A stretch of 64,000 nucleotides of DNA from Escherichia phage SSBS18_WS_10_728. Location: the sequence record MT322327.1, one strand, 5' to 3'. Positions 2,664 to 49,803 of the stretch are shown here, one piece after another. The notes under the pieces were generated by a model, which did no database searches, was not told where the DNA came from, and saw nothing but the letters and a program-made list of their open reading frames with translations. Position 1 is the stretch's first letter, and each line of letters opens with the position of its first letter. The position numbers and the translations under genes are program-made.

Positions 2664-10679
<8,016 letters not shown>

Positions 10680-27336: not shown

Positions 27337-27413
27337 TGGTCTCTGTTGGAGGACTTGAACCTCCGGCCTTACCGCCCCAAACGGAACGCTCTACCAAGCT
27401 GAGCTAAACAGAG
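27337..27413 (-). tRNA. tRNA-Pro (anticodon TGG)
   Basis: Acceptor CTCTGTT/AACAGAG, D-arm GCTCAGCTTGGTAGAGC, anticodon loop TTTGGGG, T-arm GGAGG-TTCAAGT-CCTCC, A73. Confidence 0.7.
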
Positions 27414-27537
27414 ATAAACTTTTCAAACTCTATGTAACCACTTTAACATTATTTTTTAGTGGTTGTCAAGAACTTTTTTAAAATATTTTTCAGTATCTTA
27501 GAAAAGCTCTCATTTCGTTTCTATGTAGAACATATTA

Positions 27538-28994: not shown

Positions 28995-29075
28995 ATTTTA
29001 CTCTCTTCTCTCATTTGTTGTTTGATGTGACAGACTTTAGAGCAACTTTGTAGAGTCTGTCAACACCTTTTAAAA

Positions 29076-29447
29076 TTATTTTTTGAGAGTCGCTACAGCA
29101 GAGAACGTTGGTTTGTTATCTGTCTGAGGTTGACCAGCACTATCAGGGGTCTTCTTAGTGTCTGCTGCAAGTGCTTTCATCTCACCTGCTGAGTGAGTAA
29201 AGATGGTCTTACCGACCTCAATCATACTCTTGATGTTTACGTCATCTGTGTTTAACCCGAACTCTGCAAGCTTAGCAGCATCCCTTGTAACAATCGCCTC
29301 AAACAGCTTTGCAGCAAACTCAGCAGAATTATCAATGGTCAGTTGAGCTTTTACAAGTGAACTTTTGTTACGAGAGCCTTTTGGTCTTCCAGATGGGTTT
29401 CCAGATTGGCCTTTTTTAAACTGGCCTTTGTTTGTTCTGTTTTTCAT
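29076..29447 (-). CDS. small basic protein with KGQSGNPSGRPKG motif (DUF5681-like)
   Basis: 123 aa; N-terminal FKKGQSGNPSGRPKGSRNK motif common in small phage DNA-binding or terminase-small-like proteins. Confidence 0.5.
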   Translation of the reverse strand: MKNRTNKGQFKKGQSGNPSGRPKGSRNKSSLVKAQLTIDNSAEFAAKLFEAIVTRDAAKLAEFGLNTDDVNIKSMIEVGKTIFTHSAGEMKALAADTKKTPDSAGQPQTDNKPTFSAVATLKK

Positions 29448-36939: not shown

Positions 36940-38520
36940 TTTTATAAAATTTTATCGGTTGTCCCAACCTCTGGGTCACCATCATATGTGAATAAAATAT
37001 CTATCCTTCTTAACAGCCTTCTTAATCTTACTCTCTATATAGTTATATAGTACTATATAGTATCTTAGTATCTATCTAGTGGTCTTAATAGCACCTCTGT
37101 ATAGCCCTTCTAAACACTCTTCTAACAAGCCTTCTTAACAGCCTATACAATCACCTTAACCATTCCTCTACACCCTCTTAGAAGCTCCTATACACCTCTT
37201 AATCTCTAGGTTAGCTATGATACTCTCTATAGGTGTTCACTAGGAAATACTAAGCCTCTATATAGACTGTTTTAACAAACTTAACAGGAATATCTTTACA
37301 GACCTTATCTCACAAGGTCTAACACGGTACTAACAAGGTATCTTATAAGCCTGTTTATGCCTGTATTTTTAAAAGACTGTCTAGGTAATTATTCAGAATT
37401 TTAAAATTTTTATAAAATAGGACTATCAAGTCATTTTTTAGGGTCTTTGAAGGAACTGAAAAATATCTGTAGAGTTGATTCGGTAGAGCCTACCTCATGA
37501 TGTATATCTGCTTGGTAGCCCTTAACATCCTTGTAACATCCCCTTTGCAGAATTTTAAAATATCATTAACAATCTCTTAACAGTTGCTACATCTTCTTAA
37601 CATCTCTTCAGAGGTCTTAACAGATTCTTAACAGAACTAACAAGAGCTTAACAGTTTTTTAACAAGTGCTGAATAGTCTTTACAGAGGTTTAACAGATGA
37701 CTAACAAGTCCTAAGAAGTTAATTTTAAAGGGTTATTTTGTAAAGATAATTAACAAGTTCCTAACAAGTGTTTAACCTTTTTAACAAGCTATTAACATGG
37801 TCACTATCTCTTGGTCTATAGTTCCCTCTCCCTCTTAGTGACCCTTTAAACATACCTCTTAAAAGCTCTCCATAGCTCTTTGTAAGCTCTTTTAAGTCTC
37901 TTCCTAGTAGTTACACCCCCAACTATACAGAAAGCTATTTATAGGGCTTTACAGGAGCTTTTAAGGCTATGTCAAAGACTCTTACAAGGCTTTTACGTGG
38001 TTTTAACAGAGATTTAACAAGGGGCTAACAAGTTGCTAACAAGTACCTTAAAAGCATAACTATGTAGGGTTTGTTAAGAAATTGTTAAGAAAATGTTAAG
38101 GGGGCTAGCATTTACGTAACTTTATAGCCTCTTTTACGTAACTTTGAAGTAACTTTATAGCCTCTTTTACGTAACTTTATAGCCCCTATAACATACTTTT
38201 TAGTGACTATCAAGGGGGTTGTTTAGTTATTCACAAGATACTAACGAGATGATAAAGCTTACACCCTTATAAGATTCTTTTAAGGCTCTGGTAAGCTTTA
38301 TAAAGGGATTTTAAGGGTGAAGTAATGCAATCCCTTAAGTTAGGTTAAAAAGGCTGTTATAGGGCTTTATAGAGCGTTTTAGTGGTTGCCCTTCCCTTTC
38401 GGGTTATGGGCTTATATTTAAGTTGATTTGATAAAAGGCTATAGAGTAGACTATAGAGTTATTGCTTTTAAGGTCTAGTAAGATTCTGGAAAGGAAAGGG
38501 AAAGGATTTAATAAGACGTA
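36940..38520. repeat. ORF-free repeat-rich region (YTAACAR heptamer arrays, direct repeats)
   Basis: No ORF of 60 aa or more in any frame over ~1.6 kb; more than 20 copies of TTAACAG/TAACAAG and inverse GTTAAG; three copies of TTTACGTAACTTTATAGCC at 38107-38190. Confidence 0.6.
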
Positions 38521-39830: not shown

Positions 39831-39975
39831 TGATATCTGATTGCAAGCAATTTTTTAAGTTTATCTATAAAGAATCTTTTAAGTTAATCCCTTTTAGATA
39901 AACCCCCTCGAACAAAGTTACCAATGTCAAGGGGTATTGTCAACACTTTTTTAAAAGTTTTTTGTAAGTTATTGA

Positions 39976-44651: not shown

Positions 44652-44858
44652 TTATTTATCGTAGTAGTAAATTGCTGTCTGTCTTGTAAACTTCTTAGTG
44701 TTTCTTGTAAGGTAGCAATTAGAATTAATAGCCGTTTCTACATAGTTGCAATAGTCGGCTTCTGATATTCTGGACCATACGCCACAGATTTTCATGTAAA
44801 AACGTTTTGCCTTTGTGTTAACGTTAGTTGTAACCATTAATTCACGATAGTAAGTCAT
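44652..44858 (-). CDS. hypothetical small protein (first gene of array)
   Basis: 68 aa ORF. Confidence 0.4.
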   Translation of the reverse strand: MTYYRELMVTTNVNTKAKRFYMKICGVWSRISEADYCNYVETAINSNCYLTRNTKKFTRQTAIYYYDK

Positions 44859-45374
44859 TTTTGGATTCTCCAGTTTAGGAAGTGGGCTGGCTTGCCCGTC
44901 TGATGCAAATATTAAATAACCATAGTCAAAGAGTCAATAGGAATTTTAAAAATATTTTTGCAAAAAAAAAAAAAACTGTAATGAAACGGGCGCACGCGAC
45001 TACCACAAAACAGAACTACAATCAAGAATTATTTTTCAATCCGCTACAAATTTTTCTGTTGACTTTTATTTTCAGATGTGGTAGCCTTGTGAGAAATGGC
45101 GACATCCCCACCTGCACCCACCTACCTGCACAATTCTAAAATGATTTTTCTTGCCCGACCTGAGCGGGGTCTGCACGTTTTGAAAATAAAAAAGCTCTTT
45201 GGAGATTATCTGCACAGTTTGAAAATGAATTTTCTCTTTGGAGTTCAAAATTTTCTCTACAGATTTCTCTACAGAACTCTACCTGCACAATTCTAAAATG
45301 AAAAAGCCCTCCTTACCTGAAAAATTTACCAGATAAGAAAGGCTTAGTCTATTGTGAATATTATACAGATTTTC
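44859..45374. promoter_or_regulatory. repeat-rich intergenic control region
   Basis: A14 homopolymer at 44962-44975; 21 bp direct repeat ACCTGCACAATTCTAAAATGA at ~45124 and ~45280; CTGCAC, TTTGAAAAT, CTCTTTGGAG, TTCTCTACAGA short repeats. Confidence 0.45.
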
Positions 45375-46160
45375 TTAGTTCTTTGCGCCTAAAAAGGTAA
45401 CTTCTGGTGAAGAGAAAATTTCCTCAACATTCTCATCAGTTCTTGCATAGATATATGTGTCTGCATCACTGCCAAATGTTACTGCAATTCTGTGATTGCT
45501 CTTCGACAGGTGGGTAACTAGAGCGTTACTTAGAGACATCTTTTCAACCGGAGGGTTACTTTGATGTATCTCGCCTTTTCTTCGTCTGAAGAGGGTAACT
45601 GCATCATCAGTGAACGTTACTACACCTGCAAAGTATTCTGGTTCACAGTAGTTCTTCCAACCTGAGCGTAACTTGTGGTACATCTCCCCTTCGTAGACAT
45701 ACAGATACACATCTACACTCTTCATCACCTGATTAATGATAACGGTAACGGCTTGAGGGTCCAGTCCACCGATACCTGCACCAATCATAGGTAACCCAAC
45801 TTTCTTCAACTGATTCACTTCACAGTATCTGTTAAACTGTTTCAAAGATGACTCTAAAGCACTGTATCGAGCATCTTTACCAGTCTTAAGCTGAGTGTAA
45901 AGGTTAGCTATACGGCCTTGTTTTAAACGTGCTACAGAGAAATTGCCTAGTAAATTCTCACAGGGCTTGTGGCCTATTCCACCTGCATACAGATAAACTT
46001 CTGTATCAGTCTCATATGCTTTTGGGTAAAGTTTAGAAATCTTGTCAGCGATACCTGCACCCATTAAGTTCATACAGTTGCAACCGTGACCGATGACGTC
46101 AAACTTACCTTTATCAAATGCTGCAAAGATATCACCATTGATAATTTTTACAATACCCAT
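45375..46160 (-). CDS. macrodomain protein, TARG1/DarG-like
   Basis: 261 aa; N-terminal GDIF...DVIGHGCNCMNLMGAGIA resembles TARG1/OARD1-type macrodomain signature. Confidence 0.55.
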   Translation of the reverse strand: MGIVKIINGDIFAAFDKGKFDVIGHGCNCMNLMGAGIADKISKLYPKAYETDTEVYLYAGGIGHKPCENLLGNFSVARLKQGRIANLYTQLKTGKDARYSALESSLKQFNRYCEVNQLKKVGLPMIGAGIGGLDPQAVTVIINQVMKSVDVYLYVYEGEMYHKLRSGWKNYCEPEYFAGVVTFTDDAVTLFRRRKGEIHQSNPPVEKMSLSNALVTHLSKSNHRIAVTFGSDADTYIYARTDENVEEIFSSPEVTFLGAKN

Positions 46161-49714: not shown

Positions 49715-49774
49715 TGGTTCTCCTGTTTAGTTTATCGTGACAACAATTATACAGCACTCTGCACAAAATACAAA

Positions 49775-49803
49775 TAAAAAAGGCCGCCGAAGCAGCCTTT
49801 TAA
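49775..49803. terminator. bidirectional terminator-like hairpin
   Basis: Hairpin AGGCCGC-CGAA-GCAGCCT flanked by A-run and T-run. Confidence 0.45.

What the first reader, a model, noticed from the sequence alone, without database searches (positions are those of the whole stretch)
44859..45374. Repeat-rich control region with an A14 homopolymer upstream of the small-gene array
The 0.5 kb gap contains an uninterrupted run of 14 A (44962-44975), a 21 bp direct repeat ACCTGCACAATTCTAAAATGA (~45124 and ~45280) and several short tandem motifs. It must hold the promoter for the array, and the homopolymer is a plausible slipped-strand or DNA-bending element.
Basis: seen in the sequence. Interest (0 to 1): 0.45.

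Follow-up and report, generated by a model that had tools for sequence, protein, structure and literature searches.

The report
Felix O1-type phage early control region
The gap is the conserved terminator-plus-strong-promoter region of a Felix O1-like phage; its 21-bp repeat belongs to a set of four conserved protein-binding-type repeats of unknown role, and the run of 14 A is a strain-specific expansion.

Summary
The window is a Felix O1-like phage (Felixounavirus). Genes around the gap lie on the minus strand. In detail: A14 at 44962-44975, an exact 22-bp repeat (45123-45144 and 45280-45301), and a tandem 12-mer.

Read on the minus strand, the gap holds:
- an intrinsic terminator (45345-45304);
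- four same-orientation repeats, [W5]T-CATTTY-N6-GTGCAG-R;
- a variable G/C-rich spacer and a conserved A/T-rich block;
- the T-run;
- a near-consensus UP element (14 of 15 positions, exact register) with a TTGACT-17-TAATAT sigma-70 promoter (44937-44909);
- a 5'UTR hairpin, a Shine-Dalgarno site and the first small gene.

So the promoter idea is well supported by sequence and conservation.

The A-run is not conserved. Every relative examined has 3-6 T there, except KEP1 with 12. This genome has no other run longer than 6. It is a recurrent expansion at -60 to -73, with no evidence of function.

The 21-mer is two of four sites kept in order in four Ounavirinae lineages and in number and spacing in three of them. 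The sites occur nowhere else in the genome. They are not an ORF, a structured RNA, DnaA or IHF sites, or the genome end. The most likely readings are an iteron-type origin or regulator-binding sites. I found no description of the array.

The parts
45375..46160 (-). Upstream gene (261 aa, Macro domain; homologue of T4 Tk.4, often annotated 'phosphatase'). It is the last gene of the operon that ends at the terminator. Context only.
   Evidence: ORF list. Pfam Macro domain, E = 1.3e-7. PHROG 335. Annotation of relatives.
45293..45345 (-). Rho-independent terminator. The hairpin is at 45345-45304 (17 pairs including G-U, 8-nt loop), followed by the U-tract TTTTTCATTTT.
   Evidence: Terminator scan. 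RNAalifold on 12 alleles: 13 pairs, 2 of them with compensatory double changes and several G-U/G-C switches. Annotated as a terminator in wV8, ASO1A and KhF2.
45280..45306 (-). Repeat unit 1 (CTTTTTCATTTTAGAATTGTGCAGGTA). Its left half is the terminator's U-tract.
   Evidence: Position-weight-matrix score 39.1 bits.
45252..45275 (.). Tandem 12-mer, two copies (TTTCTCTACAGA on +; TCTGTAGAGAAA on -), inside the 73-bp gap between units 1 and 2.
   Evidence: family D9. Conserved in Felixounavirus alignments. Replaced by a TCTGTACAGA palindrome in the three-unit variant.
45207..45233 (-). Repeat unit 2 (AAAATTCATTTTCAAACTGTGCAGATA).
   Evidence: Score 34.8 bits.
45168..45194 (-). Repeat unit 3 (CTTTTTTATTTTCAAAACGTGCAGACC).
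   Evidence: Score 29.6 bits.
45123..45149 (-). Repeat unit 4 (AAAAATCATTTTAGAATTGTGCAGGTA). It contains the other copy of the 21-mer.
   Evidence: Score 34.3 bits.
45061..45122 (-). Variable G/C-rich spacer. In this window it is G-rich on the sense strand and carries an extra GTGCAG half-site at 45112-45117. Most relatives carry an unrelated allele here, a C-rich polypyrimidine tract (CCCCTCTCCCCCTCTTACTCCCCCTCTCCCC).
   Evidence: Alignments. Only 40-44% identity to the other allele, against 84-95% in the flanking segments for wV8. Extra GTGCAG.
44976..45060 (-). Conserved A/T-rich block (AAAAGTCAAnAGAAAAATTTGTAGCGGATTGAAAAATAATTCTTGATTG...), ending in a short G/C-rich stretch of alternating purines and pyrimidines (GTCGCGTGCGCCCG).
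   Evidence: Alignments. 68-87% identity across genera. As RNA it folds worse than shuffles, z = +1.8.
44962..44975 (.). A14 on the + strand, T14 in the sense of transcription, at promoter positions -60 to -73. A strain-specific expansion of a T3-T6 tract.
   Evidence: the only run longer than 6 in 64 kb. Relatives: T3-T6, T12 in KEP1. In the 40 best database records the matched length is 121-123 nt for a 131-nt query, and 128 nt in KEP1.
44940..44961 (-). UP element, GCAAAAATATTTTTAAAATTCC, at positions -59 to -38.
   Evidence: 14 of 15 specified positions of the consensus NNAAAWWTWTTTTNNAAAANNN, in exact register with the -35 hexamer (consensus quoted in PMC5664571). AAAATATTTTTAAAA is kept in nearly all Felixounavirus and Mooglevirus alleles.
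44909..44937 (-). Sigma-70 core promoter: -35 TTGACT (44937-44932), 17-nt spacer, -10 TAATAT (44914-44909). Predicted start near 44902. The conserved TTTGCATCA follows the -10 hexamer.
   Evidence: Promoter scan. 24 distinct alleles keep TTGAC, a 17-nt spacer of varying sequence, TAnTAT and TGCATCA. ASO1A annotates a promoter at the same place. This exact promoter form is unique in the window.
44859..44900 (-). 5' untranslated leader: a small hairpin GGGC-AAGCCA-GCCC (44897-44884) and a Shine-Dalgarno GGAG (44871-44868) 9 nt before the ATG at 44858.
   Evidence: Read directly from the sequence. Relatives carry alternative leader alleles with the same layout.
44652..44858 (-). First small gene of the array in this phage (68 aa, PHROG 5293, function unknown). 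It is absent in many relatives, where the promoter drives the next gene.
   Evidence: Alignment of downstream genes.

Best explanation
The 0.5-kb gap is the conserved boundary module between two transcription units of Felix O1-like (Ounavirinae) phages. It is read on the minus strand and has three functional layers.

(1) Terminator. An intrinsic terminator (45345-45304) stops transcription coming from the rIIA/rIIB...macro-domain operon.

(2) Promoter. About 390 bp further on, host RNA polymerase starts again at a strong early promoter. It has a near-consensus UP element (44961-44940), -35 TTGACT, a 17-nt spacer and -10 TAATAT (44937-44909), with a start near 44902. Transcription runs through a leader with a small 5' hairpin and a Shine-Dalgarno site into the small-gene array. 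That array lies between this module and the terminal repeat of the genome.

(3) Repeat array. The repeats are followed by a replaceable G/C-rich spacer and a conserved A/T-rich block.

I infer that the repeats are binding sites for a sequence-specific DNA-binding protein that assembles on one face of the DNA. Among possible roles I rank an iteron-type replication origin first, at about 0.3. Second, at about 0.25, is operator or roadblock sites that insulate or regulate the early promoter.

The run of 14 A is not part of the conserved design. It is an expansion, probably by slippage, of a 3-6-nt T tract that abuts the UP element at -60 to -73. It lengthens the distance from repeats to promoter from 197-198 bp to 206 bp.

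Basis of each step:
- Shown by sequence and comparison: the terminator, the promoter and UP element, the conservation and uniqueness of the repeats, and the non-conservation of the A-run.
- Inferred: protein binding, an origin or regulatory role, and any effect of the A-run.
For: Identity and orientation
- The region is 92-97% identical to Felixounavirus genomes.
- The genes lie on the minus strand.

Terminator
- A hairpin plus U-tract is found.
- Compensatory changes occur across 12 alleles.

Promoter
- The hexamers are found.
- The UP consensus matches 14 of 15 positions in exact register (consensus).
- In the whole window the other strong UP matches on a gene strand are also followed within 0-2 nt by TTGACA (27492, 39965, 29085). 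This validates the criterion.
- In 24 distinct alleles the hexamers and spacer length are kept while the spacer sequence varies.
- In Felix O1, RT-PCR shows array ORFs 13, 16 and 20-22 peaking 5 min after infection (PMC3185647).

Repeats
- There are four copies, against 0.25 expected.
- A position-weight matrix scores the four sites at 30-39 bits. The next best site in the 64-kb window and in the whole 88-kb wV8 genome scores at most 16.5 bits. The exact motif is absent from the rest of wV8.
- Four units with spacing 73/39/45 are found in Felixounavirus, 75/41/45 in Mooglevirus and 37/37/39 in Kolesnikvirus. Related units occur in a fourth lineage whose flanking proteins are only 46-58% identical.
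- The module stays intact where the upstream gene or the downstream gene is different.
- Between genera the non-coding stretch is as conserved as the neighbouring gene: 72% against 72%.

A-run
- Lengths in relatives.
- Homopolymers longer than 7 are almost absent from these genomes.
Against: - No transcription start, protein binding or replication data exist for this region in any paper I could search.

Against an origin:
- No initiator gene lies next to the array.
- There are no consensus DnaA or IHF sites.
- The 37-45-bp spacing is wider than in classical iteron origins.
- The least stable DNA lies at the promoter/UP/T-run, not next to the repeats.
- GC skew shows nothing at this position.

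Against an operator role:
- The sites lie 190-390 bp upstream of the promoter.
- The distance tolerates changes of -10 to +9 bp.

Other cautions:
- The left half of each unit resembles the standard terminator tail of this phage, CTTTTTCATTT. Part of the repeat may therefore be a by-product of duplication of the terminator end.
- Natural variants with three units exist.
- The per-position conservation table is circular at the positions fixed by my search pattern.
Confidence: 0.6

Rival explanations
1. Replication origin specifically. The four repeats are iterons for a phage-encoded initiator. The complex melts the neighbouring A/T-rich DNA, helped by transcription from the adjacent strong promoter.
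For: - There is a single cluster per genome.
- The repeats are asymmetric, in one orientation, with conserved number and spacing across genera.
- An A/T-rich block follows. In the divergent lineage L061 the units are followed directly by about 190 bp of A/T-rich TTAACA repeats.
- The module is independent of its flanking genes.
- The lambda origin and T4 oriE are precedents for iterons in phage origins (my own knowledge).
Against: - No adjacent initiator gene.
- No DnaA or IHF consensus sites.
- The 37-45-bp spacing and the 73-bp gap are atypical for iterons.
- There is no skew signal.
- The replisome genes (family A DNA polymerase, primase/helicase) look T7-like. T7 origins use promoters, not iterons (my own knowledge).
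Confidence: 0.3
2. Transcriptional operator or roadblock array. A phage (or host) protein binds the four sites to stop read-through from the upstream operon, or to shut off or boost the early promoter as infection proceeds.
For: - The array lies immediately after a terminator and before the conserved early promoter.
- The distance from unit 4 to the -35 hexamer is kept at 191-198 bp in most alleles.
- The left half of each unit is terminator-tail-like.
- Array genes are expressed very early in Felix O1, while upstream genes peak later.
Against: - The sites are far upstream of the promoter, and the distance tolerates -10 and +9 bp.
- The motif occurs nowhere else in the genome, so such a regulator would have a single target.
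- The units do not form hairpins, and the RNA folds no better than shuffles.
Confidence: 0.25
3. The A-run is a contingency (phase-variable) tract. Slippage changes its length at high frequency and tunes expression of the small-gene array.
For: - Length polymorphism at exactly this site: T3-T6, T12 and T14. The two long alleles sit in different sequence backgrounds, so they arose independently.
- It is the only long homopolymer in a genome that otherwise has none longer than 6.
- It abuts the UP element.
Against: - Nearly all relatives examined have short, stable tracts.
- The tract is outside the -35/-10 spacer and outside any ORF, so a length change has no obvious switch mechanism.
- One of the two long alleles comes from a record marked UNVERIFIED_ORG, and no reads are available, so an assembly error cannot be excluded.
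Confidence: 0.1
4. DNA-entry boundary like the T5 injection stop signal. The module marks the inner edge of a first segment of about 8% of the genome, the small-gene array. That segment would enter and be expressed before the rest.
For: - The terminal repeat maps to about 37514-38105. The two ends of the vB_EcoM-Ro111lw record overlap there, and that phage is reported to have a 613-bp repeat (PMC6454146).
- The module therefore lies 7.3-7.9 kb from the physical end of a roughly 88-kb genome, or 8-9%. The T5 first-step segment is 7.9% (bioRxiv 10.1101/866236).
- As in T5, it is a repeat-rich non-coding region that is better conserved than the neighbouring small genes.
Against: - No two-step entry is known for these phages.
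- The paired DnaA boxes of T5 are absent, as are long inverted repeats.
- Which end enters first is unknown.
- The array is transcribed towards the end, not away from it.
Confidence: 0.05
5. The repeats encode something: a small protein (as annotated for wV8 gene 13) or a structured small RNA.
For: - wV8 and several other records annotate short ORFs here.
- ORFs of 50-66 aa exist on both strands of the window.
Against: - Unit spacings are 73/39/45, 75/41/45 and 37/37/39, so no reading frame is kept.
- wV8 differs from other phages by a 2-bp deletion inside its annotated ORF 13.
- There are 10-bp and allele-replacement differences.
- No Rfam match reaches a gathering score.
- Folding energy equals that of shuffles, z = -0.12 and +1.8.
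Confidence: 0.04

Closest known systems
Sigma-70 promoters with a full UP element (E. coli rrnB P1 type; strong early promoters of T5 and T7)
   Same: - -35 TTGACT, 17-nt spacer, -10 TAATAT.
- 14 of 15 positions of the UP consensus at -59..-38.
- Drives early phage genes using host polymerase alone.
   Different: - No start site or activity has been measured.
- An extra T14 tract lies just upstream of the UP element in this isolate only.
Iteron-type origins (phage lambda ori with four O-protein sites plus an A/T-rich region; plasmid iterons; iterons at T4 oriE). The comparison rests on my own knowledge.
   Same: - About four asymmetric direct repeats of about 20-27 bp, in one orientation.
- One cluster per genome, with A/T tracts between repeats and A/T-rich DNA nearby.
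- Conserved independently of the flanking genes.
   Different: - Spacing is 37-45 bp with one 73-77-bp gap, not about 20-24 bp.
- The array is not inside or beside an initiator gene.
- There are no DnaA or IHF sites.
- No replication data exist.
Injection stop signal (iss) region of phage T5 (Davison, bioRxiv 10.1101/866236)
   Same: - A non-coding, repeat-rich region at about 8% of the genome from one end.
- It borders a block of small early genes.
- It is conserved better than those genes.
   Different: - The T5 region is 1.2-1.7 kb, lies inside a 10-kb terminal repeat and has eight paired DnaA boxes and large inverted repeats.
- Here there is 0.5 kb, a terminal repeat of about 0.6 kb lying 7 kb away, no DnaA boxes and no long inverted repeats.
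Phase-variable homopolymer tracts of bacterial contingency loci
   Same: A long mononucleotide run near a promoter, with a different length in different isolates.
   Different: - It is not in the -35/-10 spacer and not in a reading frame.
- The long form is rare: 2 of the alleles examined.
- No within-population variation has been shown.

Membership tests
Sigma-70 promoter with UP element | -35 and -10 hexamers close to TTGACA and TATAAT, separated by 17 +/- 1 nt | tested here: met
   TTGACT-17-TAATAT at 44937-44909(-), 9 of 12 positions.
Sigma-70 promoter with UP element | A/T-rich UP element matching NNAAAWWTWTTTTNNAAAANNN at -59..-38 | tested here: met
   14 of 15 specified positions, in exact register. 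Consensus as quoted in PMC5664571.
Sigma-70 promoter with UP element | Hexamers and spacer length conserved in relatives while the spacer sequence drifts | tested here: met
   24 distinct alleles from three genera.
Sigma-70 promoter with UP element | Mapped transcription start and measured activity | not testable with these tools
   No transcriptome or start-site data for Ounavirinae were found. Only RT-PCR timing for Felix O1 is available.
Rho-independent terminator | G/C-containing hairpin directly followed by a U-tract | tested here: met
   17-pair stem at 45345-45304, followed by TTTTTCATTTT.
Rho-independent terminator | Base pairing maintained by compensatory change in relatives | tested here: met
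   2 pairs with changes on both sides and several G-U/G-C switches in 12 alleles.
Iteron-type replication origin | Several direct repeats of one asymmetric motif, in the same orientation, in a single cluster per replicon | tested here: met
   Four units, found nowhere else in the window or in the whole wV8 genome.
Iteron-type replication origin | Adjacent easily melted A/T-rich region | tested here: inconclusive
   The third least stable 80-bp stretch of the window is 44907-44986. It coincides with the promoter, UP element and A14, and lies 140 bp or more from unit 4. In L061 an A/T-rich tract adjoins the units.
Iteron-type replication origin | Initiator (Rep) gene at or next to the iterons | tested here: not met
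   The flanking genes are a Macro-domain protein and small proteins of unknown function.
Iteron-type replication origin | Host-factor sites (DnaA boxes, IHF sites) | tested here: not met
   No consensus TTWTNCACA or WATCAANNNNTTR in 44800-45450.
Iteron-type replication origin | Replication demonstrably starts there | not testable with these tools
   This needs marker-frequency sequencing or two-dimensional gels of infected cells.
Phase-variable homopolymer (contingency locus) | Tract length differs between isolates or within a population | tested here: met
   Between isolates: T3-T6, T12 and T14. Variation within a population could not be tested.
Phase-variable homopolymer (contingency locus) | Tract placed where its length switches expression (the -35/-10 spacer or a reading frame) | tested here: not met
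   It lies at -60 to -73, upstream of the UP element, in non-coding DNA.
T5-type injection stop signal | Non-coding repeat region about 8% from the end that enters first | tested here: inconclusive
   It lies 7.3-7.9 kb from the end inferred from the Ro111lw record. Which end enters first is unknown.
T5-type injection stop signal | Paired DnaA boxes and large inverted repeats | tested here: not met
   No consensus DnaA boxes. The longest inverted repeats are 77-82% matches of 17-22 nt.
Genome terminus or packaging site of a phage with direct terminal repeats | Coincides with the boundary of the terminal repeat | tested here: not met
   The two ends of the Ro111lw record overlap at window 37514-38105, 6.8 kb away. 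Repeat sizes of 581-613 bp are reported.
Structured non-coding RNA (Rfam families) | Match to a curated covariance model, or folding better than shuffles | tested here: not met
   The best Rfam hits are microRNA or snoRNA models far below their gathering scores. Folding z-scores are +1.8 and -0.12.
Small protein gene (wV8 gene 13) | Reading frame conserved among relatives | tested here: not met
   Unit spacings are not multiples of 3 in two of three genera, and 2-bp and 10-bp indels occur.

The most novel reading that the evidence does not exclude
The module is a cis-acting boundary for staged genome entry or expression, a functional analogue of the T5 injection stop signal. A protein (host or phage) bound to the four repeats would halt DNA transfer, or polymerase traffic, at about 8% of the genome. 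The promoter-equipped small-gene cassette next to the terminal repeat would then act first. That would make two-step infection more widespread than the T5 group, and it would rest on a different sequence signal.
Probability: 0.05. Interest if true: 0.75.

Novelty: new member of a known kind. Interest (0 to 1): 0.35.

Why it matters
- Felix O1-like phages are widely used for Salmonella typing, biocontrol and therapy. Their transcription programme, origin of replication and early takeover genes are still essentially unmapped. The Felix O1 genome paper states that it is unknown how transcription passes the many terminators and how timing is set (PMC3185647).
- This module gives a concrete, testable early promoter: an rrn-like UP element plus a sigma-70 core.
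- It also gives a single, deeply conserved four-repeat array. The array is the best current candidate for a cis-acting site, either an origin or a regulator target, in this subfamily.
- For engineering, the module should be left intact when genes around it are replaced.
- The A-run matters mainly as a caution. It is an isolate-specific length variant in a genome that otherwise avoids homopolymers, so it needs read-level confirmation before any biological meaning is attached.

Tried and rejected
1. Genome end or packaging site. I suspected this because three IMG/VR contigs (L018, L019, L025) and the Andreotti record end inside the gap.
   - Rejected: the terminal repeat maps to 37514-38105.
   - L019 runs into a Nextera adapter.
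   - The Andreotti ends are inverted-duplication artefacts.
   - The breaks sit at the G/C-rich tract, so they are most likely sequencing or assembly failures.
2. Structured RNA. Rfam at a permissive threshold gave nothing credible. Folds are not better than shuffles.
3. Small ORF, as for wV8 gene 13. The frame is not conserved.
4. The repeats as sigma-70, sigma-54 or phage-specific promoters.
   - Hand inspection on both strands found no acceptable -35/-10 geometry.
   - The motif occurs at no other place in the genome, which argues against a promoter class.
5. DnaA and IHF sites: none at consensus.
6. GC skew as an origin marker: it follows gene orientation only.
7. Search for the two-unit pattern outside phages. 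The 56 hits in bacterial and archaeal genomes all come from taxa other than Enterobacterales; I read them as unrelated repeats or chance matches without inspecting them. In viral contigs the hits are Ounavirinae, plus one coding tandem repeat (L071) and a few short contigs I did not inspect.
8. Literature. I found no description of these repeats, of an origin or of start sites for this subfamily.
9. Alternating purine-pyrimidine (Z-DNA-like) tract at about 44988-45000. It is kept among relatives, but the differences are mostly transitions, which preserve alternation automatically. I did not take it as evidence.
Full report
**What the window is**

A 2.5-kb query around the finding is 92-97% identical to more than 160 genomes of Felixounavirus, the Felix O1-like myoviruses of Escherichia, Salmonella and Shigella. 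The window also carries the 26-tRNA cluster typical of this group. All long ORFs from about 38 kb to 64 kb are on the minus strand.

The gap 44859-45374 therefore lies downstream of the 261-aa Macro-domain gene 45375..46160(-) (Pfam Macro). It lies upstream of a 68-aa gene, 44652..44858(-), the first of the small-gene array in this isolate. In the annotated relative wV8 the same gap separates gene 12 from genes 14-27. It sits inside one long transcription direction that runs from the DNA-polymerase region through nrd, rIIA and rIIB.

**Check of the observation**

Everything described is present.
- A14 lies at 44962-44975.
- The repeat is an exact 22-mer, TACCTGCACAATTCTAAAATGA, at 45123-45144 and 45280-45301. 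Shuffles predict 0.01 such pairs.
- A tandem 12-mer, TTTCTCTACAGA, occurs twice at 45252-45275.
- A14 is the only homopolymer longer than 6 in 64 kb. There are 56 A/T runs of length 6 and none of 7-13.
- Relatives show the same avoidance. The whole wV8 genome has a maximum run of 7.

**Anatomy on the transcribed (minus) strand**

1. A terminator hairpin lies at 45345-45304, followed by TTTTTCATTTT. Its pairing is kept through compensatory changes in 12 alleles.
2. Four repeat units lie at 45306-45280, 45233-45207, 45194-45168 and 45149-45123.
3. A G/C-rich spacer lies at 45122-45061.
4. An A/T-rich block lies at 45060-44976.
5. T14 follows.
6. GCAAAAATATTTTTAAAATTCC lies at 44961-44940. It matches 14 of the 15 specified positions of the UP-element consensus -59 NNAAAWWTWTTTTNNAAAANNN -38 (consensus quoted in PMC5664571; match).
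7. Two bases further on is TTGACT-17-TAATAT at 44937-44909.
8. Then come the conserved TTTGCATCA, a small hairpin, GGAG and the ATG at 44858.

The UP criterion is validated within the window. The other best matches on a gene strand (27492, 39965, 29085) are also followed at once by TTGACA.

In 24 distinct alleles from relatives, TTGAC, the 17-nt spacer length, TAnTAT and TGCATCA are kept while the spacer sequence varies. That pattern is the signature of a selected sigma-70 promoter.

In Felix O1 itself, RT-PCR placed array ORFs 13, 16 and 20-22 in the 5-minute class (PMC3185647). It is not the only promoter-like site, because others lie inside the array.

**The A-run**

- In 24 distinct promoter alleles the tract at this position is T3-T6.
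- Among the 40 best of 220 database matches to a 131-nt query spanning the tract, the matched length is 121-123 nt in 39 records and 128 nt in one.
- That one is phage KEP1, which has T12.
- KEP1 carries the other allele of the spacer and a different leader. The two long tracts therefore arose independently.
- The tract occupies -60 to -73, directly upstream of the UP element. It stretches the distance from unit 4 to the -35 hexamer from 197-198 bp to 206 bp.

It is therefore length-variable between isolates, as slippage would give. The long form is rare and not conserved. It is not placed where length could switch a promoter or a reading frame. Without reads I cannot exclude an assembly error. 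The KEP1 record is marked UNVERIFIED_ORG.

**The repeats are the real feature**

The 21-mer is copies 1 and 4 of a four-member family. Each unit reads [purine-rich] [five A/T] T-CATTTY-N6-GTGCAG-R.

- A strict pattern finds four units with spacing 73/39/45 in almost every distinct Felixounavirus locus. It finds 75/41/45 in Mooglevirus and 37/37/39 in Kolesnikvirus (phiEa21-4).
- A fourth, more divergent lineage (L061) carries five or six related units at the same syntenic position. Its flanking proteins are 46-58% identical.
- MAFFT alignments made without the pattern show the CATTT and GTGCA columns invariant, while the N6 and A/T positions vary.
- My per-position table is circular at the positions fixed by the pattern. 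I do not use it for them.
- A weight matrix scores the four sites at 30-39 bits. Nothing else in the 64-kb window or in the complete wV8 genome exceeds 16.5 bits.
- Between genera the stretch is as conserved as the neighbouring protein gene, 72% against 72%.
- BLAST still finds the central units in Erwinia and Hafnia phages.
- The module stays intact when the upstream gene is replaced (L078, phiWec177) and when the downstream gene differs.
- A natural three-unit variant exists.

**What the repeats are not**

- Not an ORF. Spacings are not multiples of three in two of three genera. The annotated wV8 gene 13 spans a 2-bp deletion that sets wV8 apart from the other phages.
- Not a structured RNA. 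Rfam gives nothing credible. Folding z-scores are +1.8 and -0.12.
- Not DnaA or IHF sites.
- Not the genome end. The two ends of the vB_EcoM-Ro111lw record overlap at window 37514-38105, which fits its reported 613-bp terminal repeat (PMC6454146). Repeats of 581 and 608 bp are reported for two other members.
- Not a promoter class, because there is only one locus.

One caution applies. All terminators of this phage end in CTTTTT(C/T/A)ATTT. This is the left half of the unit, so the array probably began as tandem duplications of the distal end of the terminator. Its conservation in four lineages still argues for function.

**Mechanism**

Shown by sequence and comparison:
- termination at 45345-45293;
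- re-initiation by host polymerase at a strong promoter carrying an UP element;
- a unique, conserved array of asymmetric direct repeats with fixed spacing.

Inferred:
- The units are bound by a sequence-specific protein. The bipartite cores lie about 12 bp apart, and the units about four helical turns apart.
- I rank an iteron-type origin first, at about 0.3. In its favour are the single cluster, the direct repeats, the nearby A/T-rich DNA, the adjacent strong transcription and the independence from flanking genes.
- An operator or roadblock array comes second, at about 0.25.
- Against an origin: no adjacent initiator gene, no host-factor sites, wide spacing and no skew signal.
- A more speculative reading, at about 0.05, notes the position. 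The module lies 7.3-7.9 kb from the physical end, or 8-9% of the genome. It forms the inner border of the promoter-equipped small-gene cassette. This resembles the position of the T5 injection stop signal at 7.9% (bioRxiv 10.1101/866236). The defining DnaA boxes and inverted repeats of T5 are absent.

**Comparison and novelty**

The promoter and terminator are ordinary members of well-known classes. The homopolymer is an isolate-level variant. The four-repeat array resembles iterons or operators but fails several defining tests for an origin. It matches no described element in the papers I could search. The wV8 and Felix O1 annotations list other direct repeats but not these.

I rate it a new member of a known kind, a conserved cis-acting repeat array beside an early promoter. 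Interest is moderate, because a function still has to be shown.

Noticed in passing
window 37514-38105 (and about 36980-37460): The direct terminal repeat of the genome maps here, because the two ends of the vB_EcoM-Ro111lw record overlap on this stretch. It is packed with about 25 copies of (C/T)TGTTA(A/G). At its inner edge are three copies of TTAACA in the opposite orientation. The least stable DNA of the whole window lies just outside it (36984-37460). In the divergent phage L061, TTAACA repeats directly follow the four-repeat array.
   Followed up: partly
window 27471-27492 (-), 39944-39965 (-), 29064-29085 (-): Three further matches to the UP-element consensus (15, 13 and 13 of 15 positions). 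Each is followed within 0-2 nt by TTGACA. The best one lies just upstream of the tRNA cluster (the first tRNA ends at 27413), which suggests an rrn-like promoter for the phage tRNAs.
   Followed up: no
whole window; wV8 genome (L039 + L040): These genomes avoid homopolymers sharply above length 6. The window has 56 A/T runs of 6 and none of 7-13. wV8 has 74 runs of 6, three of 7 and none longer. A geometric decline would predict about 15-20 runs of 7.
   Followed up: partly
relatives at the position of window 45061-45122 (e.g. L012, L018, L019, L026, L041): Most relatives carry a different allele of the spacer. It is a polypyrimidine tract, CCCCTCTCCCCCTCTTACTCCCCCTCTCCCC, which forms a four-run G-quadruplex motif on the other strand. 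Contigs L018 and L019 and the Andreotti GenBank record break at or beside this tract, and contig L025 ends about 40 nt beyond it. L019 runs into a Nextera adapter, and both Andreotti ends are inverted duplications. This is probably a hot spot for sequencing and assembly failure.
   Followed up: partly
L001 (Phage NBEco005, MN994499.1), locus 2361-2995: A 127-bp tandem duplication repeats the promoter, the leader and the first 42 nt of the small gene. This closest relative therefore has two copies of the early promoter in series.
   Followed up: no
L021 (IMGVR_UViG_3300045988_004180), from unit 3 onward: After unit 3 the contig continues into unrelated G/C-rich sequence. This is most likely a chimeric assembly joined inside the repeat array.
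   Followed up: no
window 49756-49782 (-): The terminator after rIIB is followed by CTTTTTTATTTGTATTTTGTGCAGAG. This is the best, though weak (14.6 bits), match to the repeat unit outside the gap. A TATAAT hexamer lies 7 nt after its GTGCAG. It is conserved in wV8 at 3514.
   Followed up: no
wV8 EU877232 7726-7890 (gene 13) and short ORFs annotated in the gap in several other records: These annotated hypothetical proteins lie on the repeat array. Their frames are not conserved among relatives, so they are probably over-predictions.
   Followed up: yes
window 44988-45000 and the same position in relatives: A 10-12-nt tract of strictly alternating pyrimidine and purine (CGCGTGCGC; CGCATACGTGCG in Mooglevirus) is kept although its sequence differs. 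The differences are mostly transitions, which preserve alternation, so its significance is unclear.
   Followed up: no
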